Assembly: GCA_041670385.1 (NCBI GenBank)
Contig: JBAXZI010000001.1
Span: forward strand, 2,092 to 66,091
Source of the DNA: Clostridia bacterium
Lineage (GTDB): Bacteria > Bacillota > Clostridia > Christensenellales > DTU072
DNA: 64,000 nt
Reading direction: 5' to 3'
Part shown: piece after piece, positions 693 through 42,191 of the stretch
How positions within the stretch are numbered: position 1 is the stretch's first letter
Layout of the letters: the number at the start of each line of letters is the position of its first letter
The notes under the pieces: model-generated
Told to the model about the DNA's origin: nothing
The model's database searches: none
The model's input: only the letters and a program-made list of their open reading frames with translations
Position numbers and translations under genes: made by a program

Positions 693-730
693 TTGACAAA
701 TTGCCACATATATAGTATTATATATATAAT
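693..730 (+). promoter_or_regulatory. two overlapping sigma-A-type promoter candidates for the giant LRR gene
   Basis: Candidate 1: TTGACA (693-698), 17 nt, TATTAT (716-721). Candidate 2: TTGCCA (701-706), 18 nt, TATAAT (725-730). Confidence 0.5.
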
Positions 731-738
731 TATATATT

Positions 739-761
739 TATACGCGCGTTGCGTGCGTATA
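739..761 (+). promoter_or_regulatory. GC-rich stem-loop at the predicted 5' end of the LRR-gene mRNA
   Basis: TATACGCGCG (739-748) pairs with CGTGCGTATA (752-761) as 10 bp including one G.U, with loop TTG. It is the only GC-rich patch in an AT-rich intergenic region and starts about 2-9 nt after the predicted TSS. Confidence 0.35.
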
Positions 762-798
762 CGCATAGGTACTAGTTTATATCTTAGGAGCATATTTC

Positions 799-3700
799 GT
801 GTTGAATAAATTAAGTAAGAAGCATATTATTTTATTAATACTTGTTATCAGTTTGATAGCACTTATTTTTGTAGGTTGTATTCCAAATGGGACAACAACT
901 ACCGCCACCGATGTAGTAATTTCTTTTGACACTGTCGGCGGTTCTGCAATTGCCCCCCGTTCTATAAAAACTAATATATCACAACTTAATTTACCTACTC
1001 CCTCAAAAATTGGATATGATTTTGTAGGCTGGTATAATGATGCAGCATATTCCGATATGGTAAGAACTGCTGTTATACCTACCGAAAATTGCACTTTTTA
1101 CGCAAGATGGGAAAAAAGGTCTATTACCGTTACTTTTGTTGGCGACAATAACTCTACTTTTGTTGATGTGCTTTTTGGTGATAATCTTGAAATTGCAGAT
1201 ATGCCCGAAGTGCCTGCCAAAACAGGATATTCTGGCGTTTGGGATACAACTGCTCTAGCTGACATAACCGAAAATATTACTATTCACGCTATATATACCA
1301 TGCTCGATGGCAATATTTATTATCTTGTCGATGAAGATGATGCTGATGCAAATTATACTTACTCTAATATTACAGGCACTAGCTTTGATGGTCATTTAAT
1401 TTATAATAATCAAACAGGTGTTCCTAACACCTCGGCAACTTTTCCTTCTGTAAGACCTATAAAAACTAATTATTATTTTGCCGGTTGGTATTATGACATT
1501 TATCATAATTATCCTTGTCAACAATTACCTAGCGTAATTCCTTTAGGTTCTACTATTTTGTATGCATATTTTATTGATGTAAATGATATGCCTAAGTATT
1601 TTACTTACACGCAAACCACTACTGATATATGTATAACAGGACTTACAAATGAAGGTAAACTTAAAAGCACTTTAGTCGTTCCTGAAATAATAAACGGCAA
1701 ACCCGTAACTAGTATAGGGACAATAGCTACTAGTGGCAAATCCGCTAGTGAACTTAATGTTTTTGATAGTCGTTATCTTGCATCGATTATCATTCCTAAT
1801 TCGGTAAAAACTATAGGTAGCTTTGCTTTTTCCAAATGTACCTCGCTTACTAATGTAACTATAGATGGAAATGCCCTAACGACAATAGGCACTGGTGCTT
1901 TTGCTGGTTGTACAAACATTATTAACTTTGTTTTACCCGATAGTGTAATGACAATAAATGATTATGCCTTTGCGGGAATAACTTTAGAAGCTAACGATAA
2001 TCCAATTATTCTTGATTTATCCGCTAACGATTGGCGGACACTAGAAACTTGGTACCTTGTTGATATGAAGCTTAATTCTTTTGTTATTAATAATACAAGT
2101 TCTCTAAACAACTTAAGTAACCGTTTCTTATATAACACGCCTAATTTAAGTATTTTGAATATTCCAAACACAATTAGTATAATTAATAATCAAATTTTTG
2201 ATGGAACAAGTCTAAACGAAATTTACATATATGCAGGCAATGCCGAATTGCAAAATATAAATTCAGCTGTATATTCTAGTGATGGCAAGACACTTTTGTA
2301 TTATCCCAGTAAAGGTAATTCTTCAATTACTCTAGCAACAACCACTGAAAATATAGCACCTTTTGCATTCTATAACACAACAACACTTACTAATGTAATA
2401 ACAAATTCTTTACTAAAAACTATAGGAACCTATGCTTTTAGCAATAGTACAAGCCTATCAACTATAAATCTTGAAAACTCGGCTTTAGTTTCAATAGATG
2501 AATATGCCTTTAGCAATTTGAATAATCTAGTTAGTGTAACATTCCCTGCTTCCTTGCGTACAATAGCTAATCATTCTTTTGAAAATTGCACGGGACTTAC
2601 TTCTGTAATTTTTAATGGCAATCAGATAAATTCGATAAACCCTTATTCTTTCTATAATTGTACTAGTTTACAGAGTATAGCTATACCACAATATGTATCC
2701 ACAATAGGCAATAATGCCTTTAATAATTGTAACTCACTAGAAAATGTGACTTTTAATATGAATTCTACATTGCAATATATTAATAGCTACGCATTTACAA
2801 ACTGTACAAGTCTAAATCCACTAACTTTGCCATCGACATTATTGTCTATAGGCGATTATGCTTTTGCTAGCGTTGCGGATAAAGATGGAACGATTACGCC
2901 TAATAATGCTGGTGTTAGCTTTGAAGATACCCCAAGTCTTACTTCAATAGGTAACTACGCTTTCCAATATAATCAAGGAATTACTACAGTTAAGTTGCCT
3001 TCATCGCTTAATTTTATGGGAATAGGAATATTTTATAATTGTAGTAAAATTAATAATTTATTACTTATCAATATTCTTACTATACCTACAATTCCTGCAT
3101 ATACTTTTTATGGTTGCAATTCGATTAACAAAAATGTAATATTCCCTACCACAATTACTGAAATCGGCAACTACGCTTTTTATAATTGCGAAAAAATTCC
3201 TACAATAAAATTTAGTAATATCCAAACTATTGGGACACACGCTTTTGAAAATTGTATTATGCTTAATGAGGGCCCTACCAATGAAATATTGCCACAAAGC
3301 ATTACATCTTTAGGCGAATATGCTTTTGCTAATTGTCAAAATATAACTACTGTTGATATTCCTAACGGTCTTGTATCTATTAGTGAAAATGCCTTTAATT
3401 CTTGCAAATTGCTTGCTTTGGTTAGATTTAATTCAGGTTGCATAATAGAAACAATTAAAGAAAATGCGTTTGCTAATTGTACTAGTTTGACAACTTTTGA
3501 TATACCTGCTACTTTACTTGCCCGCAGCGAAAATACTGGGTTTGTAAAAAATCCTTTCATTGGCTGTACAAATTTAGTTGAATTTACTGCTGTAAATAGC
3601 AATAACAATAATATCGTTGCAATTAATGGAGTGCTTTATACAATAGGAGACATAATAAATAGCGACCAAACTTATTCTATTTATGCTTATCCTACCGGAC

Positions 3701-6700
3701 TTGGCGGAAGTCTAGAAATAGCAACTAACATAACCAGCATAGAGAATTATGCTTTCTATGGAAGTGCTATAGACCAACTTACTTTCGCTATTAATACAAT
3801 TTCAGATAATAAAATGTCTTTATTCCTTACTTCTATCGGTGATTATGCATTCAGCAAATCTAGCGACTTGGCAAGTGTAATCTTATCATCAAAAATCATA
3901 AATGTAGGCGATTATGCTTTTGCTGAAAACCCTAAATTGCAAACTTTAATAATATCCAATACAGAAATAACTAATGGTGCAACTATTGCAGCAACACCTA
4001 CAGCAACTTATGAAATACTTAATAATTCTGTTGCTGAAAACAACAAATTAGCTTTAGGTCATAATAGTTTTGATAGTTGTGCAATAACATCTCTATTTAT
4101 ACCATCAAGGGTTACTGCCATAGGCAATAATGCTTTTTCCAACTGCTATAACATGTTATCAGCTAATTTTGCTACTTCGGATTTTAATGATGACCTAACT
4201 ATAGGAGATTATGCTTTCTACCGTGACAACGGTCTTACTTCACTTATATTGCCATCAACACTAAGTGCTATCGGCAATTACTCATTTGCTTGGTGCGTTA
4301 ATATTATTAATATTAGGTTTACTTATAAAGTAGGAAAAACTCTTACAATTGGTCAATATGCGTTTAACAATTGCAATTATTTGTACGAAATTGAATTCCC
4401 TGCTTCGCTAATTTCTCTTGGAAAAGGTGTGTTTAGTCAAAATACTAGATTAAAATATGTAACATTCCCTAATACAATCACAACAACAATAGATAATAAT
4501 GGACAAATGATAATTCCTGAAGATGCATTTTTAGATGCTACTAGTTTAGAGAGTATTACCATACCTAAGTATGTATCAGAAATTGGTAAATCTAGCTTTG
4601 CTAATCTAAAAATCCACGAATTAATAATAGAAAATGATTCTACATCGCTAAAAATAGGCGATTATGCGTTAAGTGGTCTAACAAATCTTTCTAGTATAAC
4701 CACTACCCGCACATTAGAACTTTATAAATATGCACTATACAATACACCAATAACTCAATTAAATGCTACAATATTACGACTTGATAATTATGCATTGAGC
4801 CGTACAAATTTAAGTACTTTTACTATTGATTCTACTTGCTTTATAGATAGTATGGACGTAATTGGTGAAGGTTGTTTCGCTGATACCTTATATCTAAATA
4901 ATATTACTATTAACTTAATAGGCAATAATATCCAAATTCCTGCTTATTGTTTTGAAAATAGTATTATTTCTACTATAACTTTTACTGCTGTTCCTCAAAC
5001 TTTAATTTTAGGTGATTATTGTTTTGCAAACACACCTAATCTTGTTAATATTTTATTCCTTAATACAAGCGGTGCTAATTTATCCGCAACAAACGAAATA
5101 AATATTGGGGATAGTAGTTTTAAAAACAACGCAATAACTAATATTAATATTAATTCTGATAATTTATTAACAATTAATGAAAATGCTTTCAGCTATATGC
5201 CTAAAATCCAAAGCATAATTGCTAATGCTGATACAATAATTGATATTGGGAAATTCGCTTTTAGTAATTCGCCTAAGTTGAATTGTTTAGAAATAACAGC
5301 AACCACACAAATTTCTAATTTAAGCGATGGCTTTATCAGCTTTACCAGTAATTTACAAGAAATTACTTTATTAGATACTAGCAGCAAATATATAGTAGAA
5401 GATAATGTAGTTTACAATGCCCATAATAACAGTTTAGTGGCTTATCCTTCAGGGAAAAAGGGGTCTACTTATCAAATTAAGCTAGACACTACCACTTTAA
5501 ATGATTATGCTTTTGCGGGCAATACCAACCTTAGTAATTTAATTTTAGTCGGGGATACTGTAATAACCAAAAATGAAAACACTTTCAAATCTACTGGTAC
5601 AATCAAGATATTTGTGCCTAGTGATTTAATCGATAGCTATATTAATCAATGGCAAACTACTAATGTATCATATATAAATGTTGATTTTGACAATATGCTA
5701 CTTAGATTAATTTCTGGAAACAATTATGCTGTAGAAAAATATACTGGTGTTGATGTGAATTTAACTATAAACAATATTATAGTTGTTGGAGAAGTAACCT
5801 ATAAGATTGTATCAATAGATGATAATGCATTCAAAAATAACGCTATTTTACAAACAGTGCTAATTAAAAATGGTATAAATGAATTGGGTACCTATTCCTT
5901 TGCAAATTGCGTCAACCTAACTAGTGTAACTATGGAAAGTGTATTTTACATAAATAGATACGCATTTAACAATTGTACCAAATTATCGACGGTAACCTTT
6001 GCACAAGGACTTACAGATATTAATGCCTTTGCTTTTAACAATTGCAGCAAACTTGATAATTTGATATTCCCTGATTCGCTTATCTCTATAAGTAATTCTT
6101 CATTTGCAAATTGTACTAGTCTTATTAATATAGAACTACCATCAAGCCTAACTACTATCGGTGCAAACGGCTTTGCTAATTGTTCTAATTTAGTCAAGAT
6201 TACTATTCCTCAAAAAGTAAATTATATAGGGAATTATGCGTTTGCCAACTGCAGCAATCTTACCTTTGTTTATATGCAAACCGAAATGGTTCCTAAAATT
6301 AGTATAGAAACTTTTTCTAAAACTCAAGAAAGTATGACTATTTTGGTACCAGAAAGATTAAAAGTAGATTTCCAAAGCACGCTATATTGGAGAAATTTTG
6401 CAAAAACAATTCTTATTAATGAAAATATTTATTTAGGAAGTTATGTACTACAAAAAATATCTGATACGAATAACTATCAATTAGCTTGTATCTTAGATGA
6501 GTCTTATAGTAATTTACCACATATAATTGATGGAAAAACAGTAACTGTTATTGGAAAAAATGCAATAAGTAGATTCGCAACAACATTAACAATTGAAGAA
6601 GGCTATCAAATTATTAATGATTACGCTTTTGCATGCAGCAAAAATATATCTACGGTAAATTTACCTTCTACCATAACATCTATTGGTAATCATGCATTCT

Positions 6701-8982
6701 ATAATTGCAATGCTTTATCCGAATTATCAATATCTAACTCGCCAAGTATTTCTGCACTAACGACTATCGGCGACTATGCCTTTTATAATACCAATCTAAA
6801 TCATATATCTATACCAAGTAAAGTAAACTACATAGGCAAATATGCACTAAGTGCGGATTTGTCCACTTCTTTATCAACCATTACTTTTAATTTATTACCA
6901 AATAGTAGTGTTTCTCTAACAATAGACGACTATGCTTTCAAAAATAATCAACTATTACGAGAAATTGTTTTTAATGGATATGTTATGCAACTTGGTATTG
7001 GTGCATTCGATAATTGTTTATCCCTAAACAAAATAGAATTTAATTCTATAAGCGATGCACCTGCAACAAAAGACGACACTACTTTGTTTGCTAATTGTAC
7101 ATCTCTTAGCGTGTTTGTCCCTAATATCGAAATGAGTTACAAATTCAAAGGTGCTTTTACAAATAGTAATGATAAGACCAAAATAGTTGTTATTTCTAAT
7201 ATGATTAGAGATACAACTAATTCAATTAAATACGAAAAACAAAACGGAATGCGTGTCGTTGTGGATACCTATAATTATTTTGTTTATAATATGTTATCAA
7301 GTACAAATTGTGTAGAAATTATTAATTATATAGGCGAATATACAGGTGATTTTATTGATTATCAAAATACTGCCGATGATGCGCCTAGAGATAGCGATAT
7401 AATAATCCCTAGCACTATTTTAGTTGGTGGTACTACATATTTTGTGACCAAAATAGGGAGTTATGCTTTCAATAATGTAATAACCTCTGTTTCTATCCCT
7501 GATTCCATATCAGAAATTAGCAGTTTTGCTTTTTATAAAGCAACTTCCCTAAGACAAATATCCATTGGTTCACAAAGTCAATTAAAAACAATTGGTGCAA
7601 AAGCCTTTGCTTATTGTACTTCCCTAACAAATATTTATTTCCCTAAATCAATCACTTCCATAGGTGATAGTGCATTCTATTATTGTGAAAACTTAAGTAG
7701 TGTAACCTTTGAAAACCTACTTGCTAGTGATGTAGAGACAAAACTTGTATTGAATGATTATATCTTTTCTTATTGCACTTTACTAACAACAATCAGTTTG
7801 CCAAAGCATTTGGAATCGTTAGGTGGTTATGCCTTTAGTAATTGCACATTACTTAGCAATATTGATTTCCAATTTGATGAAGATGGTGCTGACCAAATAA
7901 TAAAAGATTATTGTTTTGAAAATACGGCTTTAAAAACAATTACTCTCCCTTCTACTATAAGATCAGTGGGTGATTATGCTTTTAAGGATTGCAGCGACTT
8001 AAAATCTGTTTATATTTGTAGAATAAACGACACGCACAATTCTCTTACTAGTACTAGGTCTCATGTGTTTAATGGTATTAGCAATCCATTTATTAGAGTA
8101 TATGTACCTCTAAGTGTACTTACTAACTATGCCGCTATTGAAGGCTGGAATACTAAGTCAGTACTTGCTAATCAAGCAGATAATAGCAATATGTTTAATT
8201 ACCAAATTGCTTATGGTGCTGCAATAATTACCAACTTTATTTCTGACAATACAATTATTAACATTCCTAAATCTATAGAAATAACTGCTTTTGGAGAAAC
8301 AAATAACTATAATATTTCCACTATCGCAGCATTGGCCGGTAACGCTAATATAGAAGAAATTAGGTTTTCTCTAGATTCTGAAATAAATGCCATCGCTGAA
8401 AATGCTTTTGCTTATTGTACAAGCCTAATAAAAATAGTTCTACCTAACAGCCTAAACATTATCGGGAAAAATGCTTTTACACATTGTAGCAGTCTTACGG
8501 ATATTGTATTGCCGAATAGCATTGATACCTTAATAAATCGTACATTTACCTATTGTAGTTCGCTAAAAGAAATAACTATACCAAGTAATATAACTACTAT
8601 TTCCGAGGCTTGCTTTAGTAATTGCCCATCACTTAATCGTGTAATCGTAGAAAGTACAACGATACATTCTTTAGGAAGTGGTGTTTTCGATAACACAAAT
8701 TCTCATTTGGTTGTTATTGTGCCTACTGCCTTAAAAGCTAGTTATAAAAATGAATGGACAAAATACGCTAATAAAATTTATGCAAGAAGTGAAATGTATG
8801 GAGACTATGTTTATACTGATACTGCTGAAGGTATTGTTATTAAACAATATAATGGCGATAAATTATTAATAGATAATGCTACCATTGATTCTATAGAAAT
8901 TTTAGGTAAAAAAATAATAAACTTTGAACAAGCAACTTGCGTTAATCCTAACACAATAATAGATTGGAGAATAAATGGATAA
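799..8982 (+). CDS. giant BspA-type leucine-rich-repeat surface lipoprotein (2,727 aa)
   Basis: GTG start 8 nt after AGGAG (786-790). Signal peptide with lipobox IFVG|C (Cys27). N-terminal GY.F.GWY units resemble the Listeria-Bacteroides / InlB B-repeat. The rest is dozens of ~23-25-aa units of the BspA/LRR_5 type (IP.SV..IG..AF..C.SL..V.I). Confidence 0.85.
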   Translation: MLNKLSKKHIILLILVISLIALIFVGCIPNGTTTTATDVVISFDTVGGSAIAPRSIKTNISQLNLPTPSKIGYDFVGWYNDAAYSDMVRTAVIPTENCTFYARWEKRSITVTFVGDNNSTFVDVLFGDNLEIADMPEVPAKTGYSGVWDTTALADITENITIHAIYTMLDGNIYYLVDEDDADANYTYSNITGTSFDGHLIYNNQTGVPNTSATFPSVRPIKTNYYFAGWYYDIYHNYPCQQLPSVIPLGSTILYAYFIDVNDMPKYFTYTQTTTDICITGLTNEGKLKSTLVVPEIINGKPVTSIGTIATSGKSASELNVFDSRYLASIIIPNSVKTIGSFAFSKCTSLTNVTIDGNALTTIGTGAFAGCTNIINFVLPDSVMTINDYAFAGITLEANDNPIILDLSANDWRTLETWYLVDMKLNSFVINNTSSLNNLSNRFLYNTPNLSILNIPNTISIINNQIFDGTSLNEIYIYAGNAELQNINSAVYSSDGKTLLYYPSKGNSSITLATTTENIAPFAFYNTTTLTNVITNSLLKTIGTYAFSNSTSLSTINLENSALVSIDEYAFSNLNNLVSVTFPASLRTIANHSFENCTGLTSVIFNGNQINSINPYSFYNCTSLQSIAIPQYVSTIGNNAFNNCNSLENVTFNMNSTLQYINSYAFTNCTSLNPLTLPSTLLSIGDYAFASVADKDGTITPNNAGVSFEDTPSLTSIGNYAFQYNQGITTVKLPSSLNFMGIGIFYNCSKINNLLLINILTIPTIPAYTFYGCNSINKNVIFPTTITEIGNYAFYNCEKIPTIKFSNIQTIGTHAFENCIMLNEGPTNEILPQSITSLGEYAFANCQNITTVDIPNGLVSISENAFNSCKLLALVRFNSGCIIETIKENAFANCTSLTTFDIPATLLARSENTGFVKNPFIGCTNLVEFTAVNSNNNNIVAINGVLYTIGDIINSDQTYSIYAYPTGLGGSLEIATNITSIENYAFYGSAIDQLTFAINTISDNKMSLFLTSIGDYAFSKSSDLASVILSSKIINVGDYAFAENPKLQTLIISNTEITNGATIAATPTATYEILNNSVAENNKLALGHNSFDSCAITSLFIPSRVTAIGNNAFSNCYNMLSANFATSDFNDDLTIGDYAFYRDNGLTSLILPSTLSAIGNYSFAWCVNIINIRFTYKVGKTLTIGQYAFNNCNYLYEIEFPASLISLGKGVFSQNTRLKYVTFPNTITTTIDNNGQMIIPEDAFLDATSLESITIPKYVSEIGKSSFANLKIHELIIENDSTSLKIGDYALSGLTNLSSITTTRTLELYKYALYNTPITQLNATILRLDNYALSRTNLSTFTIDSTCFIDSMDVIGEGCFADTLYLNNITINLIGNNIQIPAYCFENSIISTITFTAVPQTLILGDYCFANTPNLVNILFLNTSGANLSATNEINIGDSSFKNNAITNININSDNLLTINENAFSYMPKIQSIIANADTIIDIGKFAFSNSPKLNCLEITATTQISNLSDGFISFTSNLQEITLLDTSSKYIVEDNVVYNAHNNSLVAYPSGKKGSTYQIKLDTTTLNDYAFAGNTNLSNLILVGDTVITKNENTFKSTGTIKIFVPSDLIDSYINQWQTTNVSYINVDFDNMLLRLISGNNYAVEKYTGVDVNLTINNIIVVGEVTYKIVSIDDNAFKNNAILQTVLIKNGINELGTYSFANCVNLTSVTMESVFYINRYAFNNCTKLSTVTFAQGLTDINAFAFNNCSKLDNLIFPDSLISISNSSFANCTSLINIELPSSLTTIGANGFANCSNLVKITIPQKVNYIGNYAFANCSNLTFVYMQTEMVPKISIETFSKTQESMTILVPERLKVDFQSTLYWRNFAKTILINENIYLGSYVLQKISDTNNYQLACILDESYSNLPHIIDGKTVTVIGKNAISRFATTLTIEEGYQIINDYAFACSKNISTVNLPSTITSIGNHAFYNCNALSELSISNSPSISALTTIGDYAFYNTNLNHISIPSKVNYIGKYALSADLSTSLSTITFNLLPNSSVSLTIDDYAFKNNQLLREIVFNGYVMQLGIGAFDNCLSLNKIEFNSISDAPATKDDTTLFANCTSLSVFVPNIEMSYKFKGAFTNSNDKTKIVVISNMIRDTTNSIKYEKQNGMRVVVDTYNYFVYNMLSSTNCVEIINYIGEYTGDFIDYQNTADDAPRDSDIIIPSTILVGGTTYFVTKIGSYAFNNVITSVSIPDSISEISSFAFYKATSLRQISIGSQSQLKTIGAKAFAYCTSLTNIYFPKSITSIGDSAFYYCENLSSVTFENLLASDVETKLVLNDYIFSYCTLLTTISLPKHLESLGGYAFSNCTLLSNIDFQFDEDGADQIIKDYCFENTALKTITLPSTIRSVGDYAFKDCSDLKSVYICRINDTHNSLTSTRSHVFNGISNPFIRVYVPLSVLTNYAAIEGWNTKSVLANQADNSNMFNYQIAYGAAIITNFISDNTIINIPKSIEITAFGETNNYNISTIAALAGNANIEEIRFSLDSEINAIAENAFAYCTSLIKIVLPNSLNIIGKNAFTHCSSLTDIVLPNSIDTLINRTFTYCSSLKEITIPSNITTISEACFSNCPSLNRVIVESTTIHSLGSGVFDNTNSHLVVIVPTALKASYKNEWTKYANKIYARSEMYGDYVYTDTAEGIVIKQYNGDKLLIDNATIDSIEILGKKIINFEQATCVNPNTIIDWRING

Positions 8983-9517
8983 TTTTTATAAAGTTAATAT
9001 TTGCGGAAGAGAAGAAACTTTGCCAATACTTCCGATAAGCCCGACCTTATCAATTGCTTTTTTTAATTTACATGGGGCACAAGAACTAACCGAATTTTGT
9101 GCAAGCGAATTAGCAAAAAAACTAGAAGGGTGTGAAGTGGTTATTACAGCCGAAAGTAAAGGCTTACAACTAGCACACTGCATAGCCCGTAATTTAGGGC
9201 AGAAATACTATGCCGTGGCTCGTAAAACGAAAAAATTATATATGCAAGACGGTATAACTTCTAATGTAAATTCTATTACCACTGATGGAGAACAAACCCT
9301 TTATTTAAGCAATGCCGACGCAGCACTTATTAAAGACAAAAAAGTAGCAATCGTAGATGATGTTATTTCTACTGGTGGCAGTTTATTAGGTTTAGAAAAC
9401 TTGGTTCGTATTGCGGGTGGAATAATTGAAAAGAAAGCATTTGTGCTTGCAGAAGGCGATGCACAATATAGAAAAGATGTGGTTTTTCTTTCTACAATAC
9501 CACTAATAACAAAATAA
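8975..9517 (+). CDS. type I phosphoribosyltransferase (adenine/xanthine PRT-like)
   Basis: 180 aa with PRPP-binding loop VAIVDDVISTGGS and upstream AESKG...ARK. The ATG overlaps the LRR-gene stop by 8 nt. Confidence 0.75.
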   Translation: MDNFYKVNICGREETLPILPISPTLSIAFFNLHGAQELTEFCASELAKKLEGCEVVITAESKGLQLAHCIARNLGQKYYAVARKTKKLYMQDGITSNVNSITTDGEQTLYLSNADAALIKDKKVAIVDDVISTGGSLLGLENLVRIAGGIIEKKAFVLAEGDAQYRKDVVFLSTIPLITK

Positions 9518-10434: not shown

Positions 10435-11307
10435 ATGAATAAAAAAGAAAAACTACTACCCAACCAGAAAGATAGTTCAATAATTATTATACTTATGCTC
10501 GTTGTTATGACAATCGCAAGTATGATAGCTCAAGCATTTTTGAAAAAAGGAACAAATATCTATTTGTATTTTGGTTTTGCAATACCACAAGTAGTATATA
10601 TTTTTGGTGTACTCATTTATTTTAATGCCAGAAACATTCCTTTTAATCTTAATATTAAAGAAAACGCACCAAAAAATTGGAAGTTATATCTCTTAGCAAT
10701 TTTATTAGGTTCGGGGTTATTCTTCTTTGCACTACCTATAAATAACTTTGTAGTTAAATTTTTTACTAGTATAGGAATAAATAGCGGTGTATCCGTACCA
10801 ATACCTAGTAGTTTGTTTGATTACATATTATGTTGTGTAATACTAGGTATAATGCCCGCAATTGGGGAAGAATTATTATATCGCAAAGCCTTAGGTGATG
10901 GAATAGAAAAATTAGGGACATTAAGTGCCGTAATTATTATGGGACTTTTATTCTCATTAGGTCATCTAAACATATCACAAACAATTTACCAATTCTTTAT
11001 GGGGTGTATCTTTGCCGTAATTTATCTAACGACAAAAGATATAATAATAACTATGTTAGCTCACGCCACCAACAATATCCTTGTCATATTGCTATCATTC
11101 TTAACTCCAGAAGCCATTTGGTCATTACCTGCAGTAATGATATTGTGTGGCATTTGTGGATTATTTGCTTGGGTATTAAGCCTAACACTTATTCTTCGCA
11201 AACGCTTCGTTAATCATAAAAAACAAGAAAAAATTAATATTTATCTAATTATTTTAATATTAATAATGGTAATACTTTGGGTGATTGTTGCAATTACCTC
11301 ATTCTAA
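10435..11307 (+). CDS. CPBP-family intramembrane glutamic endopeptidase
   Basis: Polytopic membrane protein carrying EELLYR (EExxxR), FSLGH (FxxxH) and HATNN (HxxxN). Confidence 0.8.
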   Translation: MNKKEKLLPNQKDSSIIIILMLVVMTIASMIAQAFLKKGTNIYLYFGFAIPQVVYIFGVLIYFNARNIPFNLNIKENAPKNWKLYLLAILLGSGLFFFALPINNFVVKFFTSIGINSGVSVPIPSSLFDYILCCVILGIMPAIGEELLYRKALGDGIEKLGTLSAVIIMGLLFSLGHLNISQTIYQFFMGCIFAVIYLTTKDIIITMLAHATNNILVILLSFLTPEAIWSLPAVMILCGICGLFAWVLSLTLILRKRFVNHKKQEKINIYLIILILIMVILWVIVAITSF

Positions 11308-11329
11308 CAATAGGAGACATAAAAGAATT

Positions 11330-12373
11330 ATGAGTAAAACTTTTAAATTTTGTACTATATATTTTATAGCAGCTGTTTGGGTAGTGGTTGTCCGGATTAT
11401 ATTTAGTTCACTAAATTTATCCGATAACATATCTAATTGGCTATTTTCTTTCATAGTACAAATTATTGGTCTAGGTATTATACCAATGCTGTTATATAAG
11501 TTTTGGGCAAAAGAAAAGGTAAGTTGCTTGATAAGGTCAAAAGCCAAAATAAGCCCTCAAATTATTTTGCTTGCAATACTTATAGGTCTATTTTCTAGAC
11601 AACTTACGATAGCAATTGCCGTATTATGGCAAAATTTTATTATGCTTTTAGGCTTTACTCAAATAAATTCTGCAGGAACTATTTTTTCTTCACACGAGGT
11701 TATTTGGTTAGAACTTATTTGTACCGCACTACTTCCTGCTATATTTGAGGAAATAACACATCGTGGTTTGCTTCAAGATGCACTTTCAGATGTAAAAACC
11801 GACCGTTCAAAAATTATAATAATGGCAATTATGTTTGGTCTTATGCACCAAAATGTAAATCAAGTTTGTTATACTATTGTTGGCGGTATGATAATGGCAT
11901 ATCTAGCAGTAAAAACTGGAAGTTTACTTCCTGGAATGATAGTCCATTTTATGAATAATGCTTTTAGCGTTCTTAGTAGTTATTCACAACAAACAAATGG
12001 TTTATTTAATTATTATGGAGAGATGTTTAACAATTTTCTATATGGAAATGCAATAATTTTACTTTTAGTTTGGGTATTTTCAGGAGTATTGGTTTACTTC
12101 TTACTAGTAAAAGTAAAAGATATAAGCTTGAAAAATAAACTACAAGACAGAAATTCTTGCAATAATTACTATAATCAAGAAAATGTTTATAACTACAATT
12201 ACAATAATAATAGTAATAATGTACAACAAATGGATAATGTCTTTGGGTATTCTTCATCTACTAATATAATAAAATCTAAAGCCAAATGGTATGAATACGC
12301 ATTTTTATATGGTACTATAGCCTTGTGTCTTGCCACTACTATATTTTCATTTTATTGGGGACTACTTAGATGA
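11330..12373 (+). CDS. CPBP-family intramembrane glutamic endopeptidase, second tandem copy
   Basis: EEITHR, FGLMH and HFMNN motifs. I prefer ATG 11330 (MSKTFKF.., GGAG at 11313-11316) over the track start 11285. It has an Asn/Tyr-rich segment (NNYYNQENVYNYNYNNNSNN) before the last TM. Confidence 0.75.
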   Translation: MSKTFKFCTIYFIAAVWVVVVRIIFSSLNLSDNISNWLFSFIVQIIGLGIIPMLLYKFWAKEKVSCLIRSKAKISPQIILLAILIGLFSRQLTIAIAVLWQNFIMLLGFTQINSAGTIFSSHEVIWLELICTALLPAIFEEITHRGLLQDALSDVKTDRSKIIIMAIMFGLMHQNVNQVCYTIVGGMIMAYLAVKTGSLLPGMIVHFMNNAFSVLSSYSQQTNGLFNYYGEMFNNFLYGNAIILLLVWVFSGVLVYFLLVKVKDISLKNKLQDRNSCNNYYNQENVYNYNYNNNSNNVQQMDNVFGYSSSTNIIKSKAKWYEYAFLYGTIALCLATTIFSFYWGLLR

Positions 12374-18180: not shown

Positions 18181-20574
18181 ATGAAGAAAAAACTTGTTGT
18201 ACTTATTCTATTTGTGGCTCTAGTTAGTAGCCTTTTGTTAAGTAGTTGTACTTTTGTAAAGGAAAATGAAGAGAGAGTGGCTGCTTCTGTAGTTAGTACC
18301 GTTTCTTGTGAATACGAAGGTAACGATAGTTTCCCTTCTCAAAATTTAACACTTGATATTACAAGAACCGAATTACTTAACTATGTAAACTATATCATTT
18401 ATCTTTATTCACAATATCAAATGGATTATGAAATAGACAAAGTTCTTGATGACGGGCTAGAAAGTTTGCGTACACAAAAATATCAAATGCTTAAAGGTAT
18501 GGAATATTTAATGAATAATGCTAGTGCTGAAAGAAAAGCCGCTATGTATTATTTTACCGATGACTACAAAAATGTTTACGGGTCAAAAATTACTTGTGAA
18601 GGTTTGCTTACTATCGCTGAAAGATATCAAGCTATTGCCGACACTAATGAACAATTTGACACAAGCATAGATGGTTACATTGATGATTACAATACTGAAA
18701 ATAGGTCATTAGATATTAGCGTAGTAAAAGAAACATTAACAGGTTTATATTATGATGGCTACACAGTAAAAGAAGAAGATGGAGTATCCGTTGCTCACTT
18801 AGTTAATGCAACTGCAAAAACTGACGCTGAAAAATATGCCGACGGTTTATACCAGACTCAATTCAGTTCGGATTTTGATGATGTTGATTATCAAGAAGTA
18901 TATGCAAAAATAATTTTAGTTAAGAAAGATAGTGATGATATTATTGTTTATTATCCTATCACTGAAGGAATGATGGCTTTAGCTGACAATGCTGATGACA
19001 CCAATAATAATCCTCGTCTAACTAATAGAACACTTACAGTAACTTATCAAGAGCCTAAAACAACTACAACCACAACAAAAGATGACGACGGCAAAGATGT
19101 TACTACTACTTCAAAAACTTATATTGCTCACGCAGTAGATGTAGAATATACAAAATTTGCTCCTCGTAATATTATACCTAAAGATAGTGATGGAAATGAT
19201 GTTGTAGAAACCATTGATTATCTTGATGGAACAGATTATAACTATCGTTACAAAACAACTTTTACCACTGATGCCGAAAAAGAATTTGCTGGTAATGGTT
19301 CAATTTTCGATATAAATCCTAGCAACTTAACAACTGCTACGAAAGATGCTTATAGACAATTCAAACAAGCAAAAAAGGCTCAATTAATTGGTTTTGATGC
19401 TACCGATACAATTTATAACGGTCTTGGTTATTTTTATCTAACATCTTTCCAATCTTCCTTAACTACTGCTGTAAAACATGAGCTTGCTTTATCTGCTTAT
19501 GCTACAAATCCAGTTACTGAAGATAATATAGAAGCACAATTTACAAATCTTGCTACAAAACAAAAAGAAGAATATGCTCTTTTAAGTCAAAAAGACCAAG
19601 TTGCAAAATTTGCTAAAACTATCGGTACTAATTTAGAAACTTGTTATTATGTACCACTTGATGCACTTAAGAATACTACTTACACTTACACTGATAGCGC
19701 TGATAATGAAGTAGAAAAGGCATATGCAGTAGAAAATGCAGATGGAACTTACACTATAGATATGTTTTATATTGCTCATATTTTATTCAAGTTTGATGCA
19801 AACTTCAAAACTATAATGGATAGAGCCACTGCTAATTTAACCGAAGATGAAGATATTAAAAATAAAAAATTGGATTTAATTGAGACAGGTTTACTTGACA
19901 CAAATACTACAAATCCTGATTATTTAGATAACTTAGGCGAAGAGCTTAAAGACGCTTTTAGTATAATGACAGATTCTGAAGGAAATGCTATTCTTAATGA
20001 TAACGGTGAACAACAACTACTATATACCAAAGTAATTGATGTATATAACCAACTTCAACTTGACTTAGCCGCAGCTACTACTTATGAGGCTAAACTTGAT
20101 ATATTCAAAGAATATATGACTAAATACAACGATGATAGTGGTTCTTTAACTAGTAATATTGGTTACTTTATCGGTATGGGAGATATAGAACATAGCTATG
20201 ATGGCGATGACTTCCCTAATGCTAGTAAAACTATTTATACAGACTTTTTAGAAGATGGCACTATTGACACATTTACACAAAGAGCCTTCACTTCTTATGG
20301 TTTACACGTAGAAGCAATTAGCTTTATGCCATTAAATAATGTTACTATAAATAACCCAAAAGCTGGTTTGTATTCACTTGATATAAATACTAATTTAGAT
20401 ATATCTGGAGAAAAAACTATCAAGGATACAATTCAAGCAAGTCTTATTTCAACTCAAAAAGATGATGCATATAGTGCTTGGACAGATCAATACGATAAAG
20501 ATGAAGCAGAAGCAAATAGCACATTAAATAAAAGTGTATTAAAAAAGATAAAGAAAGACTTAAATATTGATTAA
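18181..20574 (+). CDS. large lipoprotein, possible PrsA/parvulin-like foldase
   Basis: Lipobox LLLSS|C (Cys23). The C-terminal third has strings reminiscent of a PpiC/parvulin domain (..AHILFKF.. at ~19760-19800; FKEYMTKYNDDSGS..IGYFIGMGD; FTSYGLHVEAI at ~20290-20330), split by a long insertion. It sits directly after mfd. Confidence 0.45.
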   Translation: MKKKLVVLILFVALVSSLLLSSCTFVKENEERVAASVVSTVSCEYEGNDSFPSQNLTLDITRTELLNYVNYIIYLYSQYQMDYEIDKVLDDGLESLRTQKYQMLKGMEYLMNNASAERKAAMYYFTDDYKNVYGSKITCEGLLTIAERYQAIADTNEQFDTSIDGYIDDYNTENRSLDISVVKETLTGLYYDGYTVKEEDGVSVAHLVNATAKTDAEKYADGLYQTQFSSDFDDVDYQEVYAKIILVKKDSDDIIVYYPITEGMMALADNADDTNNNPRLTNRTLTVTYQEPKTTTTTTKDDDGKDVTTTSKTYIAHAVDVEYTKFAPRNIIPKDSDGNDVVETIDYLDGTDYNYRYKTTFTTDAEKEFAGNGSIFDINPSNLTTATKDAYRQFKQAKKAQLIGFDATDTIYNGLGYFYLTSFQSSLTTAVKHELALSAYATNPVTEDNIEAQFTNLATKQKEEYALLSQKDQVAKFAKTIGTNLETCYYVPLDALKNTTYTYTDSADNEVEKAYAVENADGTYTIDMFYIAHILFKFDANFKTIMDRATANLTEDEDIKNKKLDLIETGLLDTNTTNPDYLDNLGEELKDAFSIMTDSEGNAILNDNGEQQLLYTKVIDVYNQLQLDLAAATTYEAKLDIFKEYMTKYNDDSGSLTSNIGYFIGMGDIEHSYDGDDFPNASKTIYTDFLEDGTIDTFTQRAFTSYGLHVEAISFMPLNNVTINNPKAGLYSLDINTNLDISGEKTIKDTIQASLISTQKDDAYSAWTDQYDKDEAEANSTLNKSVLKKIKKDLNID

Positions 20575-40810: not shown

Positions 40811-40849
40811 AAAACAAAAAAGCAAAGAAATTATTCTTTGCTTTTTTTT
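40811..40849. terminator. bidirectional terminator (TrxR-like gene / tRNA cluster)
   Basis: AGCAAAGAA (40821-40829), loop ATTA, TTCTTTGCT (40834-40842), flanked by an A-run on the left and a T-run on the right. Confidence 0.7.
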
Positions 40850-40924
40850 GGTGGGAACAATAGGGCTCGAACCTATGACATCTTGCTTGTAAGGCAAGCG
40901 CTCTCCCAACTGAGCTATGCTCCC
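40849..40924 (-). tRNA. tRNA-Val (UAC)
   Basis: Hand-folded 76-nt cloverleaf GGGAGCA..TGTTCCCACCA with anticodon loop CTTACAA. CCA is encoded. Confidence 0.9.
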
Positions 40925-40933
40925 GAACTTTTT

Positions 40934-41008
40934 TGGTGACCCCACCGAGGTTCGAACTCGGGTTACCGCCGTGAAAGGGCGATGTCTTAACCGCTTGACC
41001 ATGGGGCC
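40934..41008 (-). tRNA. tRNA-Glu (UUC)
   Basis: 75-nt cloverleaf GGCCCCA..TGGGGTCACCA with anticodon loop CTTTCAC. Confidence 0.9.
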
Positions 41009-41021
41009 TTGTATTTTTACT

Positions 41022-41098
41022 TGGTAGCGGCGGTTAGATTCGAACTAACGACCTGCCGGGTATGAACCGGCCGCTCTAACCAACTAAGCCACGCCGCC
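41022..41098 (-). tRNA. tRNA-Met (CAU), elongator type
   Basis: 77-nt cloverleaf GGCGGCG..CGCCGCTACCA with anticodon loop TTCATAC. It resembles the Bacillus elongator Met tRNA. Ile2 (lysidine) identity is not formally excluded. Confidence 0.8.
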
Positions 41099-41131
41099 AC
41101 ATTGTATAATAGTCACACAGCTTAAAAAAAG

Positions 41132-41209
<78 letters not shown>

Positions 41210-41276: not shown

Positions 41277-42191
41277 CTAAACTTTGTTTTTTACAGAATT
41301 TATTATTGCATTTGCAACCACTTCGCTTGCCCCAACTTCAAGCAACATAAAATTTAAAACTTTCTTTTTTCCTGTCGCCATTACGAACATTGTATCACCG
41401 TCATAATCAGTATGGACTGGGCTAATAGTCCTTGCAAGTCCATTATGCGCTATACTTGCTAATTTATTTGCCTCTACTTTTGTTAGCTTAGCATCGGTAA
41501 TTAAACAACCTATAGTCGTATTTGTGCCCATAACTAACCTTAAATATTCTCCATCTAAAATACATTTTTTTGTATTTAACCAATTACCTTTATTGTCTTT
41601 TGCTCCCGCAATTATTTTATTTGTATCGGGGTCTATAATATCGCCTAAAGCATTTACTACCATAACAGCAGTTAGGGTAATACCCTGAACTTTAATTGTT
41701 GCTATACCCAAACCTGATTTACTAGAATTTTTAATGCCCCGAACCTTTCCACAAGTTGCACCAGTACCCGCACCTATATTTCCTGACACTGTATTTTCAT
41801 TATTTGCGTTTTTGCACGCTTCCATTCCCATTTGTTTGTCTGGGTAATGATAGTTAGTATCGTTCAAATCATAAATTACAGCACCCGAAACAATAGGAAC
41901 AATTTTATTTTGGATTTTGAACCCTATTCCGTTTTCTTTAAGATATTCCATTACTCCCGCTATAGCACCTAAACCATATGCACTTCCTCCGCAAAGAGCA
42001 ATTGCATTTATTTTTTGCATAGCTTTTTCATTGTGCAAAAGGTCAGTCTCGTGAGTGCCTGGTCCGCCACCACGGACATCGACACCGCCTATACAGCCTT
42101 CTTCACTAATAATTACACTTATTCCCGTGTATTCATCTTGAAAATGACCTATCTTAATCCCTTTTGGTATTATCACTGTTTCCATTATCAC
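41277..42191 (-). CDS. P1/S58-family (DmpA-like) aminopeptidase
   Basis: GVDVRGGGPGTHETDLL and GTNTTIGCLITDAKL (self-processing nucleophile region) match the DmpA/BapA Ntn-hydrolase pattern. The start is GTG 42191 or ATG 42185. Confidence 0.8.
   Translation of the reverse strand: MIMETVIIPKGIKIGHFQDEYTGISVIISEEGCIGGVDVRGGGPGTHETDLLHNEKAMQKINAIALCGGSAYGLGAIAGVMEYLKENGIGFKIQNKIVPIVSGAVIYDLNDTNYHYPDKQMGMEACKNANNENTVSGNIGAGTGATCGKVRGIKNSSKSGLGIATIKVQGITLTAVMVVNALGDIIDPDTNKIIAGAKDNKGNWLNTKKCILDGEYLRLVMGTNTTIGCLITDAKLTKVEANKLASIAHNGLARTISPVHTDYDGDTMFVMATGKKKVLNFMLLEVGASEVVANAIINSVKNKV

What the first reader, a model, noticed from the sequence alone, without database searches (positions are those of the whole stretch)
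799..8982. The 2,727-aa BspA-type LRR lipoprotein looks like about six stand-alone BspA cassettes fused head to tail
After the lipobox (Cys27) and the GY.F.GWY B-repeat units, the protein is almost entirely LRR_5-type units. At intervals, however, the sequence restarts with the N-terminal signature typical of independent BspA-like proteins ('name-like' beta strand, then ..I.GY.G.., then 'IP..I.G..VTSIG..AF'). These restarts are at ~1597 (YFTYTQTTTDICITGLTNEGKLKSTLVVPEIINGKPVTSIG), ~5694 (LLRLISGNNYAVEKYTGVDVNLTINNIIVVGEVTYKIVSIDDNAF), ~6442 (YVLQKISDTNNYQLACILDES..IIDGKTVTVIGKNAI), ~7270 (YNYFVYNMLSSTNCVEIINYIGEY..), ~8191 (MFNYQIAYGAAIITNFISDNTIINIP) and ~8797 (YGDYVYTDTAEGIVIKQYNGDK..). Three segments also carry the 'dGvLY...L..YP.g' motif that usually closes such cassettes (~2231-2330, ~3601-3710, ~5381-5465). 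So this is a concatemer rather than one uniformly expanded solenoid. A multi-headed surface binder of that kind is unusual in size for the family.
Basis: partly seen in the sequence, partly recalled or inferred. Interest (0 to 1): 0.55.

Follow-up and report, generated by a model that had tools for sequence, protein, structure and literature searches.

The report
Giant modular BspA-type LRR lipoprotein
This 2,727-residue gene encodes a real, conserved surface lipoprotein of an uncultured Clostridia bacterium, built from one very long and four short capped leucine-rich-repeat modules.

Summary
ORF 799-8982 (+) is intact. It has a lipobox (Cys27), Flg_new-type repeats and about 2,450 aa of BspA/TpLRR-type (Pfam LRR_5) repeats.

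The repeat run is not uniform.
- AlphaFold2 models (pLDDT 88-90) show these caps.
- Single modules superpose on stand-alone solved BspA-type proteins.
- The N-cap aligns to the N-terminus of 4GT6, and the C-cap to the last residues of 4FD0 and 4FDW.

Three points need correcting.
- The modules are very unequal: one is about 1,360 aa, four are 200-300 aa, and one is a 60-aa stub.
- The 'dGvLY' hairpins lie inside repeat runs; they do not close cassettes.
- Neither the size nor the multi-cassette build is unusual. More than 100 homologues are 1,800-4,700 aa, and many carry 3-15 internal N-caps.

The fusion is not recent. Eleven full-length orthologues (28-50% identity, two of the three loci examined in shared gene order) keep every junction, while sister modules are only about 30% identical.

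Verdict: a new member of a known kind. An adhesin role is inferred, not shown.

The parts
693..730 (+). Sigma-70-like promoter candidates (TTGACA-17-TATTAT at 693-721; TTGCCA-18-TATAAT at 701-730).
   Evidence: each matches 11 of 12 consensus positions. This is a consensus match only, not shown to function.
786..790 (+). Ribosome-binding site AGGAG, 8 nt before the GTG start.
   Evidence: read directly from the sequence.
799..8982 (+). Whole ORF: 2,727-aa BspA/TpLRR-type lipoprotein, stop codon included.
   Evidence: The exact protein is on a 126-kb ENA contig.
799..879 (+). Signal peptide with lipobox F-V-G-C (Cys27).
   Evidence: The lipobox Cys is kept in orthologues. Pattern-based; no SignalP or LipoP run.
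910..1578 (+). About three Flg_new (Listeria-Bacteroides repeat) units, aa 38-260; probable stalk next to the lipid anchor.
   Evidence: Flg_new at 41-102, 49.5 bits; TIGR02543. Units 2 and 3 were identified by motif only.
1594..5682 (+). Module A, aa 266-1628: N-cap hairpin (266-312), about 50 LRR units including degenerate stretches, C-cap (1596-1628).
   Evidence: N-cap 21.3 bits with the external HMM; C-cap strand plus helix at aa 1603-1618.
2230..2334 (+). Internal 'dGvLY..YP' beta-hairpin insertion 1 (aa 478-512).
   Evidence: 15.6 bits, null maximum 3.7.
3601..3714 (+). Internal beta-hairpin insertion 2 (aa 935-972).
   Evidence: 12.1 bits.
5374..5478 (+). Internal beta-hairpin insertion 3 (aa 1526-1560).
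   Evidence: 32.9 bits. One search shows three short strands at aa 1531-1548, with LRR strands continuing afterwards.
5686..6414 (+). Module B, aa 1630-1872: N-cap hairpin, about 8 LRR strands, C-cap helices.
   Evidence: 6mlx_C: 201 columns, rmsd 2.4 Å, TMt 0.80; N-cap aligns to 4gt6 residues 20-60.
6433..7191 (+). Module C, aa 1879-2131: divergent N-cap, about 8 LRR strands, C-cap.
   Evidence: The N-cap is weak by sequence (10.5 bits, second half only).
7192..7260 (+). The only sizeable low-confidence linker, aa 2132-2154.
   Evidence: pLDDT about 40 for local residues 1-22 (aa 2136-2157).
7261..8166 (+). Module D, aa 2155-2456: N-cap carrying a roughly 20-aa disordered insert, about 9 LRR strands, C-cap.
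   Evidence: (21.9 bits).
8188..8796 (+). Module E, aa 2464-2666: N-cap, about 6 LRR strands, canonical C-cap HLVVIVPTALKASYKNEWTKYANKIYA.
   Evidence: the C-cap aligns to the C-termini of 4fd0_A and 4fdw_A.
8797..8979 (+). Terminal stub F, aa 2667-2727: N-cap-like beta-hairpin plus one helix and one strand, with no LRR run after it. Kept in all orthologues.
   Evidence: conserved in 9 of 9; pLDDT 86-95 except the last 10 aa; only 6.0 bits with the external HMM.
8975..9517 (+). Downstream adenine phosphoribosyltransferase gene, overlapping the LRR gene by 8 nt. A neighbour, probably not part of the system.
   Evidence: PRK07322, 185 bits against a cut-off of 143. The adjacency is kept in orthologue loci.

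Best explanation
**What it is.** A genuine, vertically inherited gene for a giant cell-surface lipoprotein of an uncultured low-GC Clostridia bacterium.

**How it is built (shown).**
- A lipobox Cys27 at the N-terminus.
- About three Flg_new beta-domains.
- About 2,450 aa of 23-residue TpLRR/BspA-type repeats, consensus LTSVTLPSSLTTIGNYAFANCTS.
- These repeats form five capped solenoid modules.
- Module A is about 1,360 aa and is interrupted by three beta-hairpin insertions. Modules B-E are 200-300 aa each.
- A conserved 60-aa N-cap-like stub ends the chain.
- Each short module is the structural equivalent of one stand-alone BspA-type protein.
- The arrangement is old and stable, not a recent fusion.

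**How it most likely works (inferred).**
- Cys27 is lipid-modified and holds the N-terminus at the membrane.
- The Flg_new units act as a stalk.
- The modules are joined by linkers of 10 aa or less (one of about 25 aa). They are probably packed cap-to-cap into a segmented, fairly rigid rod tens of nanometres long.
- The rod displays several distinct concave LRR faces, so the protein would act as a multivalent adhesin or ligand binder, by analogy with BspA, LrrA, PcpA and LrrG.
For: **The gene is real**
- The ORF is intact with an RBS and promoter-like sites.
- Inside the gene there are no DNA repeats longer than 67 nt, and none more than about 60-90% alike, so an assembly collapse is unlikely.
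- The exact protein is on a 126-kb ENA contig and is also listed from a JGI source.

**The architecture is conserved**
- There are 11 full-length orthologues, 2,642-2,894 aa, at 28-50% identity over 97-100% of the length.
- Several were recovered repeatedly from separate assemblies.
- In the two orthologue loci examined the adenine PRTase gene follows directly, as in the window; one of the two also shares further downstream genes with the window.
- All five junctions, the three hairpins and the terminal stub are aligned and conserved in all nine aligned orthologues. Orthologue L006 shows the same layout of 6 N-caps, 3 hairpins and 5 C-caps.

**Structure predictions**
- AlphaFold2: aa 1520-2135 gives pLDDT 90.1, pTM 0.81; aa 2136-2727 gives pLDDT 88.2, pTM 0.82. 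The hairpin - LRR strands - helix pattern repeats in each module.
- Foldseek returns BspA-type structures covering about one module each: 6mlx with 201 columns, rmsd 2.4 Å, TMt 0.80; 4oju with TMt 0.84. TMq is only about 0.3.

**Caps match the termini of stand-alone proteins**
- The N-cap aligns to 4gt6 residues 20-60.
- The C-cap aligns to 4fd0 residues 329-403 of 404 and 4fdw residues 299-398 of 401.

**Family and age**
- LRR_5 scores 997 bits.
- Modules match their positional orthologues at 227-485 bits, but sister modules at only 37-99 bits.
Against: - No experiment bears on ligand, localisation or lipidation.
- The lipobox call rests on a pattern only.
- Three of the six N-caps (C, E, F) and, in leave-one-out tests, three of the five C-caps are not recovered by sequence profiles. 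They rest on AlphaFold2 and on conservation among orthologues.
- The models used shallow alignments (7 and 9 sequences). I could see neither coordinates nor PAE, so 'rigid cap-to-cap packing' is inferred from pTM of about 0.8 alone.
- Module A (aa 266-1519) was not modelled.
- The best named NCBIfam adhesin model (HupY/LrrG) scores far below its cut-off (286 against 1,250 bits).
Confidence: 0.75

Rival explanations
1. A recent concatemer: several stand-alone BspA-like genes, or one cassette, were fused or tandemly duplicated recently in this genome.
For: Cap-to-cap junctions exist. Unrelated LRR_5 proteins match each module better (88-197 bits) than its sister modules do (37-99 bits). That pattern would fit assembly from different sources at some time in the past.
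Against: - Sister modules are only 28-43% identical.
- No DNA repeats are longer than 67 nt.
- Every junction is present in the nine aligned orthologues down to 29% identity; the layout was also checked by HMM in L006, which has all of it, and in L015, which shows part of it. The adenine PRTase gene follows the LRR gene in both orthologue loci examined.
- Any fusion therefore predates the divergence of this whole lineage.
- The higher outside scores may simply reflect the far larger number of outside modules sampled.
Confidence: 0.04
2. One uniformly expanded LRR solenoid; the 'restarts' are chance variation among degenerate repeats.
For: Half of the protein (module A, about 1,360 aa) is indeed one long run with no internal cap-cap junction. 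Three N-caps score at noise level with the external HMM.
Against: - Self-similarity collapses at each junction.
- AlphaFold2 places helices (C-caps) and hairpins (N-caps) only at the junctions.
- The caps align to the termini of solved stand-alone proteins.
- The junctions are conserved in all orthologues.
- Foldseek aligns crystal structures well to single modules only.
Confidence: 0.03
3. An assembly artefact: a short-read metagenome assembler (k141 contig) joined several LRR genes into a chimeric ORF.
For: The contig comes from a short-read metagenome assembly, and the gene is rich in repeats.
Against: - The repeats are too diverged at the DNA level to mislead a k=141 assembler.
- The same-length gene is recovered in many independent assemblies and MAGs from different projects (P0006 cluster: 2,701-2,719 aa, ten near-full-length members listed, each with its own contig; P0004 cluster; L006; L015). 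In the two orthologue loci examined the same adenine PRTase gene follows it.
Confidence: 0.02
4. The architecture is as described, but the protein is not an adhesin. It could be a structural surface-layer or spacer fibre, or a scaffold that docks other secreted proteins.
For: - It is conserved as a single-copy syntenic gene among housekeeping genes.
- All modules are about equally conserved (47-54% to P0002).
- High pTM suggests a rigid rod.
- This pattern differs from the fast-evolving, multi-copy adhesin families.
Against: Every characterised LRR_5 protein I know of (BspA, LrrA, PcpA, LrrG/HupY, TvBspA) is reported as a binding or adhesion protein (my own knowledge, and PMC2843621). LRR concave faces are classic ligand-binding surfaces.
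Confidence: 0.15

Closest known systems
Stand-alone BspA-type LRR cell-surface proteins with solved structures (PDB 4GT6 from Faecalibacterium prausnitzii; 4FS7, 4FDW from Bacteroides ovatus; 4FD0 from B. caccae; 4H09 from Eubacterium ventriosum; 4OJU)
   Same: - Same 23-residue LRR_5 unit.
- The same N-cap hairpin at the N-terminus (4GT6 residues 20-60).
- The same internal 'dnvLY' hairpin (4GT6 around residue 224).
- The same C-cap '..[20 protein letters not shown]' at the very C-terminus (4FD0, 4FDW).
- These are the best Foldseek hits.
   Different: They are single cassettes of about 380-400 aa. The window protein chains five such units plus a stub behind a lipid anchor and Flg_new repeats. 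Its first unit is expanded to about 1,360 aa.
TpLRR (Treponema pallidum, PDB 6MLX), the founding TpLRR-class protein
   Same: One module superposes on it (201 columns, rmsd 2.4 Å, TMt 0.80). It has the same repeat class.
   Different: TpLRR is a single domain of about 215 aa. Sequence identity is only about 20-24%.
BspA of Tannerella forsythia and LrrA of Treponema denticola (the name-giving adhesins)
   Same: The same LRR_5/TpLRR repeat class. They are surface-exposed, and reported to bind host proteins and mediate coaggregation (PMC2843621 and my own knowledge).
   Different: From my own knowledge, not tested here: BspA is about 1,100 aa, from a diderm, and combines the LRRs with Ig-like domains and a C-terminal sorting domain. 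No direct comparison was run.
HupY/LrrG (Streptococcus agalactiae) and PcpA (S. pneumoniae, PDB 4CP6)
   Same: Gram-positive surface LRR_5 adhesins. HupY/LrrG is the best named NCBIfam hit, and PcpA is a top-3 Foldseek hit.
   Different: The HupY model scores 286 bits against a cut-off of 1,250, so this protein is not a member. PcpA is anchored by choline-binding repeats rather than a lipobox, and has a single LRR domain.
Other giant multi-cassette LRR_5 proteins of Clostridia, Bacteroidia, Lentisphaerota and others (for example P0015, 4,386 aa with 15 N-caps; P0118, 1,831 aa with 7; the Oligosphaera ethanolica DSM 24202 locus L010; ORFs up to 5,954 aa)
   Same: The same build: repeated N-cap restarts, often preceded by 'VP..Y..W' C-caps, and often with Flg_new repeats.
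   Different: They are only 22-29% identical to the window protein, with different numbers and orders of modules and extra domains (peptidase S8, Big_2, dockerin and others). All are annotated simply as 'leucine-rich repeat protein'. I found no paper that describes the cassette grammar.
Listeria internalins
   Same: A surface protein that combines an LRR solenoid with B-repeat/Flg_new-type domains.
   Different: A different LRR class (22-residue internalin type with its own cap and an Ig-like inter-repeat domain). The order is LRR then B-repeat, with a single LRR domain. This comparison comes from my own knowledge and was not tested here.

Membership tests
BspA-like / TpLRR proteins (Pfam LRR_5, PF13306) | A significant match to the LRR_5 profile above Pfam's gathering score. 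| tested here: met
   997.3 bits against a cut-off of 27.7, in 19 stretches.
BspA-like / TpLRR proteins (Pfam LRR_5, PF13306) | A tandem repeat unit of about 23 residues of the type L..I.IP.SV..IG..AF..C.. | tested here: met
   the self-derived consensus is LTSVTLPSSLTTIGNYAFANCTS, with at least 50 units above the shuffle threshold. One search gives the layout.
BspA-like / TpLRR proteins (Pfam LRR_5, PF13306) | The fold of the solved family members. | tested here: met
   top Foldseek hits are 4gt6, 4fs7, 4cp6 and 6mlx (probability 1.00; per-module TMt 0.72-0.84). This is a predicted model, not an experimental one.
BspA-like adhesins (functional class) | Binding to host, matrix or microbial ligands; surface exposure. 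| not testable with these tools
   Inference by homology only.
Bacterial lipoproteins (Lgt/Lsp substrates) | An N-terminal signal peptide ending in a lipobox [LVI..][ASTVI][GAS]C. | tested here: met
   K-rich n-region, hydrophobic core, F-V-G-C with Cys27; the Cys is conserved in 8 of 9 orthologues. Pattern reading only, with no predictor run. F at position -3 is atypical but allowed by the PROSITE PS51257 rule (my own knowledge).
Bacterial lipoproteins (Lgt/Lsp substrates) | Actual diacylglyceryl modification and cleavage. | not testable with these tools
   No experimental data are available.
Flg_new / Listeria-Bacteroides repeat (PF09479, TIGR02543) | A profile match above the cut-off. | tested here: met
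   49.5 bits against 27 (aa 41-102). TIGR02543 at 37.5 against 20.95. Units 2 and 3 were seen by motif only.
HupY/LrrG adhesin (NCBIfam NF047961, equivalog) | A whole-protein score above the curated cut-off. | tested here: not met
   286.4 bits against 1,250. The match is to shared LRR units only.
Gli349 gliding-machinery protein (NCBIfam NF045861) | A whole-protein score above the curated cut-off. | tested here: not met
   102.6 bits against 1,750. The similarity is at repeat level only.
Multi-cassette (capped-module) LRR_5 architecture | Repeated C-cap/N-cap junctions inside one polypeptide, with the caps equivalent to the termini of stand-alone proteins. | tested here: met
   The same grammar appears in unrelated proteins. 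Three of the six N-caps are weak by sequence.

The most novel reading that the evidence does not exclude
The modules are not beads on a string. They are locked cap-to-cap (C-cap helix of one against N-cap hairpin of the next) into a rigid, kinked rod roughly 40-50 nm long. That rod would be a conserved, single-copy envelope fibre of this uncultured Clostridia lineage. The conserved C-terminal orphan N-cap hairpin (aa 2667-2727), which has no LRR run of its own, would be the functional tip. It could cap the rod, or dock by strand or hairpin complementation onto another LRR protein or a second copy. That would be a defined assembly mechanism for giant LRR_5 proteins that nobody has described.
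Probability: 0.12. Interest if true: 0.4.

Novelty: new member of a known kind. Interest (0 to 1): 0.2.

Why it matters
The practical value is modest.
- The analysis gives a clear grammar for reading the many giant 'leucine-rich repeat proteins' of gut and anaerobe Clostridia and Bacteroidia that databases leave undescribed: N-cap hairpin, LRR run with optional 'dGvLY..YP' hairpin insertions, then a 'VP..Y..W' C-cap.
- It shows that one such protein has kept its full five-module layout across orthologues that are only about 30% identical. All modules therefore appear to be under selection.
- This helps to choose domain boundaries for expression, structure determination and ligand screens.
- It does not reveal a new kind of system.

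Tried and rejected
- **Whole-protein self-BLAST** gave only the identity hit. I replaced it with chunked self-BLAST.
- **Leave-one-position-out cap HMMs** recovered only 2 of 5 C-caps and 3 of 6 N-caps. Sequence alone therefore does not prove all the caps. I relied on an external HMM, AlphaFold2 and conservation among orthologues.
- **Is the 'dGvLY' hairpin a diverged N-cap, a restart without a C-cap?** hhalign of the N-cap profile against the hairpin profile gave E=0.39, and against the C-cap profile E=0.41. The idea is not supported.
- **The search for related loci with the 9-sequence alignment A2** failed because no stretch was conserved enough. With the 4-sequence alignment A3, the patterns chosen were generic LRR motifs (TIGDYAFY). 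Most of the 80 loci are therefore paralogous LRR_5 genes, and only L006 and L015 are orthologues. The loci were still useful for length and architecture statistics.
- **The C-cap HMM built from this family** transfers poorly to other proteins: 8 hits in 5 of 111. C-caps elsewhere were seen by eye and through the PDB alignments.
- **Literature searches** found no paper on the cassette architecture of bacterial LRR_5 giants.
- **The 5'-UTR hairpin at 739-761** is no better than shuffled sequence (z = 0.10).
- **Rfam** found only the four tRNAs.
- **Not run:** the 1.84-billion-protein representative search, and two further homologue searches. Their rankings favour long multi-module proteins, so they could not give an unbiased length distribution.
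Full report

Yes. The window holds an uninterrupted ORF at 799..8982 on the + strand: 2,727 codons, GTG start, and AGGAG 8 nt upstream. Two near-consensus sigma-70-type promoter matches lie at 693-730.

The product begins MLNKLSKKHIILLILVISLIALIFVGC. This is a basic n-region, a hydrophobic core and an F-V-G-C lipobox with Cys27. A lipobox cysteine at the same place is present in eight of nine orthologues; the ninth gene call is N-terminally truncated.

Pfam reports LRR_5 (PF13306, 'BspA type') at 997 bits in 19 stretches, and Flg_new at residues 41-102. NCBIfam adds the Listeria-Bacteroides repeat.

The three 'dGvLY..YP' motifs are at aa 478-512, 935-972 and 1526-1560.

**2. Is it more than chance?**

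Laying the sequence out on its ..IG..AF..C.. anchors gives regular 23-residue units, consensus LTSVTLPSSLTTIGNYAFANCTS. At least 50 units score above a shuffle threshold.

The off-diagonal self-similarity profile is far from uniform. Bins inside LRR runs have 30-60 significant self-hits. Bins at aa 400-500, 900-1000, 1300-1650, 1850-1900, 2100-2200, 2400-2500 and beyond 2650 have 0-9.

I then built an N-cap HMM from 73 sites in unrelated LRR_5 proteins only.
- Sites 267, 1640 and 2156 score 21-22 bits, against a maximum of 6.3 in 200 shuffles.
- Sites 1905, 2462 and 2668 reach only 6-10.5 bits, no better than ordinary LRR units.
- The three hairpins score 15.6, 12.1 and 32.9 bits, against a null maximum of 3.7.

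Leave-one-position-out profiles gave a similarly mixed picture. By sequence alone, therefore, half of the restarts are solid and half are not.

**3. Structure settles the rest.**

I ran two AlphaFold2 models on orthologue alignments.
- aa 1520-2135: pLDDT 90.1, pTM 0.81.
- aa 2136-2727: pLDDT 88.2, pTM 0.82.

Both show the same pattern four times over:
- one short strand every 23 residues or so;
- a last strand followed by one or two helices.

That last element is a C-terminal cap with the motif 'VP....Y....W'. The five copies are IKIFVPSDLIDSYINQW, TILVPERLKVDFQSTLYW, SVFVPNIEMSYKFKGAF, RVYVPLSVLTNYAAIEGW and VVIVPTALKASYKNEW.

Foldseek against the PDB returns the BspA-type LRR structures first: 4GT6, 4FS7, PcpA (4CP6), TpLRR (6MLX) and 4OJU. 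The good superpositions cover one module only (6MLX: 201 columns, 2.4 Å, TMt 0.80; 4OJU: TMt 0.84). TM-scores normalised to the three-module query stay near 0.3.

**4. Are the caps those of stand-alone proteins?**

Yes, and this is the strongest support for the 'cassette' reading.
- phmmer aligns the module-B N-cap (SGNNYAVEKYTGVDVNLTINNIIVVGEVTYKIVSIDDNAF) to residues 20-60 of the 394-residue F. prausnitzii protein 4GT6.
- It aligns the module-E C-cap (HLVVIVPTALKASYKNEWTKYANKIYA) to '[27 protein letters not shown]'. That stretch ends at residue 403 of 404 in 4FD0 and at 398 of 401 in 4FDW.
- Among 63 complete LRR_5 ORFs taken from GTDB reference genomes, the first N-cap hit lies within the first 150 residues in 16.

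**5. Corrections to the interpretation.**

*(a) The modules are very unequal.*
- Module A spans aa 266-1628 and has no internal cap-cap junction. Half the protein is therefore one greatly expanded run.
- B (1630-1872), C (1879-2131), D (2155-2456) and E (2464-2666) are the size of stand-alone proteins.
- F (2667-2727) is only a hairpin, a helix and a strand, and then the stop codon.

*(b) The 'dGvLY..YP' element does not close cassettes.*
- In 4GT6 it sits mid-chain and more LRRs follow it.
- In model 1 it forms three short strands, after which LRR strands resume.
- In other proteins it recurs every 170-450 residues inside long runs.
- Profile-profile comparison shows no relation to the N-cap or the C-cap.

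*(c) The size and the build are ordinary for the family.*
- The 120 best database hits are 1,831-4,659 aa.
- Complete LRR_5 ORFs in reference genomes range up to 5,954 aa, and 18 of 63 are at least 2,688 aa. One large example is in the cultured Oligosphaera ethanolica DSM 24202.
- In the 111 non-orthologous homologues the N-cap HMM finds 158 sites in 54 proteins, and none in shuffled or reversed controls. Twenty-three proteins have at least three sites, and one has 15. The sites are often preceded by visible 'VP..Y..W' caps.

**6. Age and origin.**

- Eleven full-length orthologues exist: P0002-P0008 and P0012 plus loci L006 and L015, at 2,642-2,894 aa and 28-50% identity over 97-100% of the query.
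- One is annotated 'leucine-rich repeat protein [Clostridia bacterium]'. Several have been assembled repeatedly in independent projects.
- In the window and in the two orthologue loci examined, the gene is followed directly by an adenine phosphoribosyltransferase gene. One locus also shares the next downstream genes (a metallo-beta-lactamase-fold gene and two Rce1-like genes).
- Every junction, every hairpin and the terminal stub align in all nine sequences compared. An HMM scan of L006 gives the same 6 N-caps, 3 hairpins and 5 C-caps.
- Each module matches its positional counterpart in orthologues at 227-485 bits, and its sister modules at only 37-99 bits. Unrelated LRR_5 proteins score higher than sisters, at 88-197 bits.
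- The gene has no DNA repeats beyond 67 nt at roughly 60-90% identity.

The layout therefore predates the divergence of this lineage, and there is no trace of recent fusion, duplication or assembly collapse. Whether the modules arose by ancient internal duplication or by joining different cassettes cannot be resolved from these data.

**7. How it most likely works.**

*Shown:* the lipobox, the Flg_new units, the capped TpLRR modules, the short inter-module linkers (10 aa or less, except about 25 disordered residues before module D), and roughly equal conservation of all modules (47-54% to the closest orthologue).

*Inferred:*
- The protein is lipid-anchored by Cys27 on the outer face of the membrane of a monoderm Clostridia cell.
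- The Flg_new domains act as a stalk.
- The modules project outward as a segmented rod. With roughly 75-80 units at about 0.5 nm per unit, the length would be tens of nanometres.
- The high pTM for three-module constructs suggests the modules are packed against each other rather than freely jointed. I could not inspect PAE or coordinates.
- By analogy with BspA, LrrA, PcpA, LrrG and TvBspA (PMC2843621 and my own knowledge), the concave LRR faces would bind external ligands, giving a multivalent adhesin.
- A purely structural or scaffolding role is a live alternative. The protein is single-copy, syntenic and evenly conserved.

**8. Comparison and verdict.**

The protein is a bona fide member of the LRR_5/TpLRR (BspA-like) family. 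It fails the curated cut-offs for HupY/LrrG and Gli349. It is built from units equivalent to the stand-alone structures 4GT6, 4FS7, 4FD0 and 4FDW.

The multi-cassette architecture is widespread. However, I did not find it described in the searchable literature.

The finding is correct as an observation and partly correct as an interpretation. It describes a new member of a known kind, so interest is low. The only mildly unexplained feature is the conserved C-terminal orphan hairpin.

**9. Context.**

The window is a chromosomal segment of about 30% GC with housekeeping genes, including the shikimate pathway, mfd, recA, rny, ftsK and serS. No second LRR_5 gene lies in the window, so the suggested comparison with stand-alone BspA genes 'from the same genome' could not be made.

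Noticed in passing
window 48947-63862 (-): A 4,971-aa ORF with no Pfam or NCBIfam hit at E<=0.001 and no internal repeats by self-BLAST. It is rich in Asn, Ile and Tyr. Its C-terminal sequence looks like parallel beta-helix repeats by eye, and its listed TTG start may not be the true start. It is a much less explained giant protein than the LRR gene, and lies next to a DUF6273 protein (47725-48906).
   Followed up: partly
window 18181-20574 (+): A 797-aa ORF directly after mfd with no Pfam or NCBIfam match.
   Followed up: partly
window 8975-9517 (+); L002 9669-10208; L004 11938-12477: An adenine phosphoribosyltransferase gene (PRK07322, 185 bits) overlaps the stop of the LRR gene by 8 nt. In orthologue loci only about 31% identical, a roughly 180-aa phosphoribosyltransferase-domain gene (presumably the same) directly follows the LRR gene. 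This is probably conserved gene order rather than a functional link.
   Followed up: partly
window 8797-8979 (aa 2667-2727 of the LRR protein): A conserved C-terminal N-cap-like hairpin with no LRR run after it. It is confidently folded in AlphaFold2 and present in all orthologues. Its role is unexplained.
   Followed up: partly
window 10435-12373 (+): Two tandem Rce1-like (CAAX protease / CPBP family) membrane protein genes. They are also present downstream of the orthologue in L002.
   Followed up: no
window ~20,600 and whole-window GC skew: GC skew is positive over 10-20 kb (genes on +) and strongly negative from 20 to 64 kb (genes mostly on -). Gene orientation converges near 20.6 kb. This could mark a replication terminus, or simply strand bias of the genes. 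The LRR gene itself has a slightly negative skew although it lies on the + strand.
   Followed up: no
window 739-761 (+): A GC-rich 10-bp hairpin (UAUACGCGCG...CGUGCGUAUA) in the otherwise AT-rich 5' leader of the LRR gene. Its folding energy is no better than shuffled sequence (z = 0.10), and there is no Rfam match.
   Followed up: yes
window 40849-41209 (-): A tRNA cluster Val(TAC)-Glu(TTC)-Met(CAT)-Met(CAT).
   Followed up: no
window 42154-43584 (-) and 45905-46750 (+): A 476-aa ORF with only a sub-threshold TMEM154 match, and a 281-aa ORF with no Pfam match.
   Followed up: no
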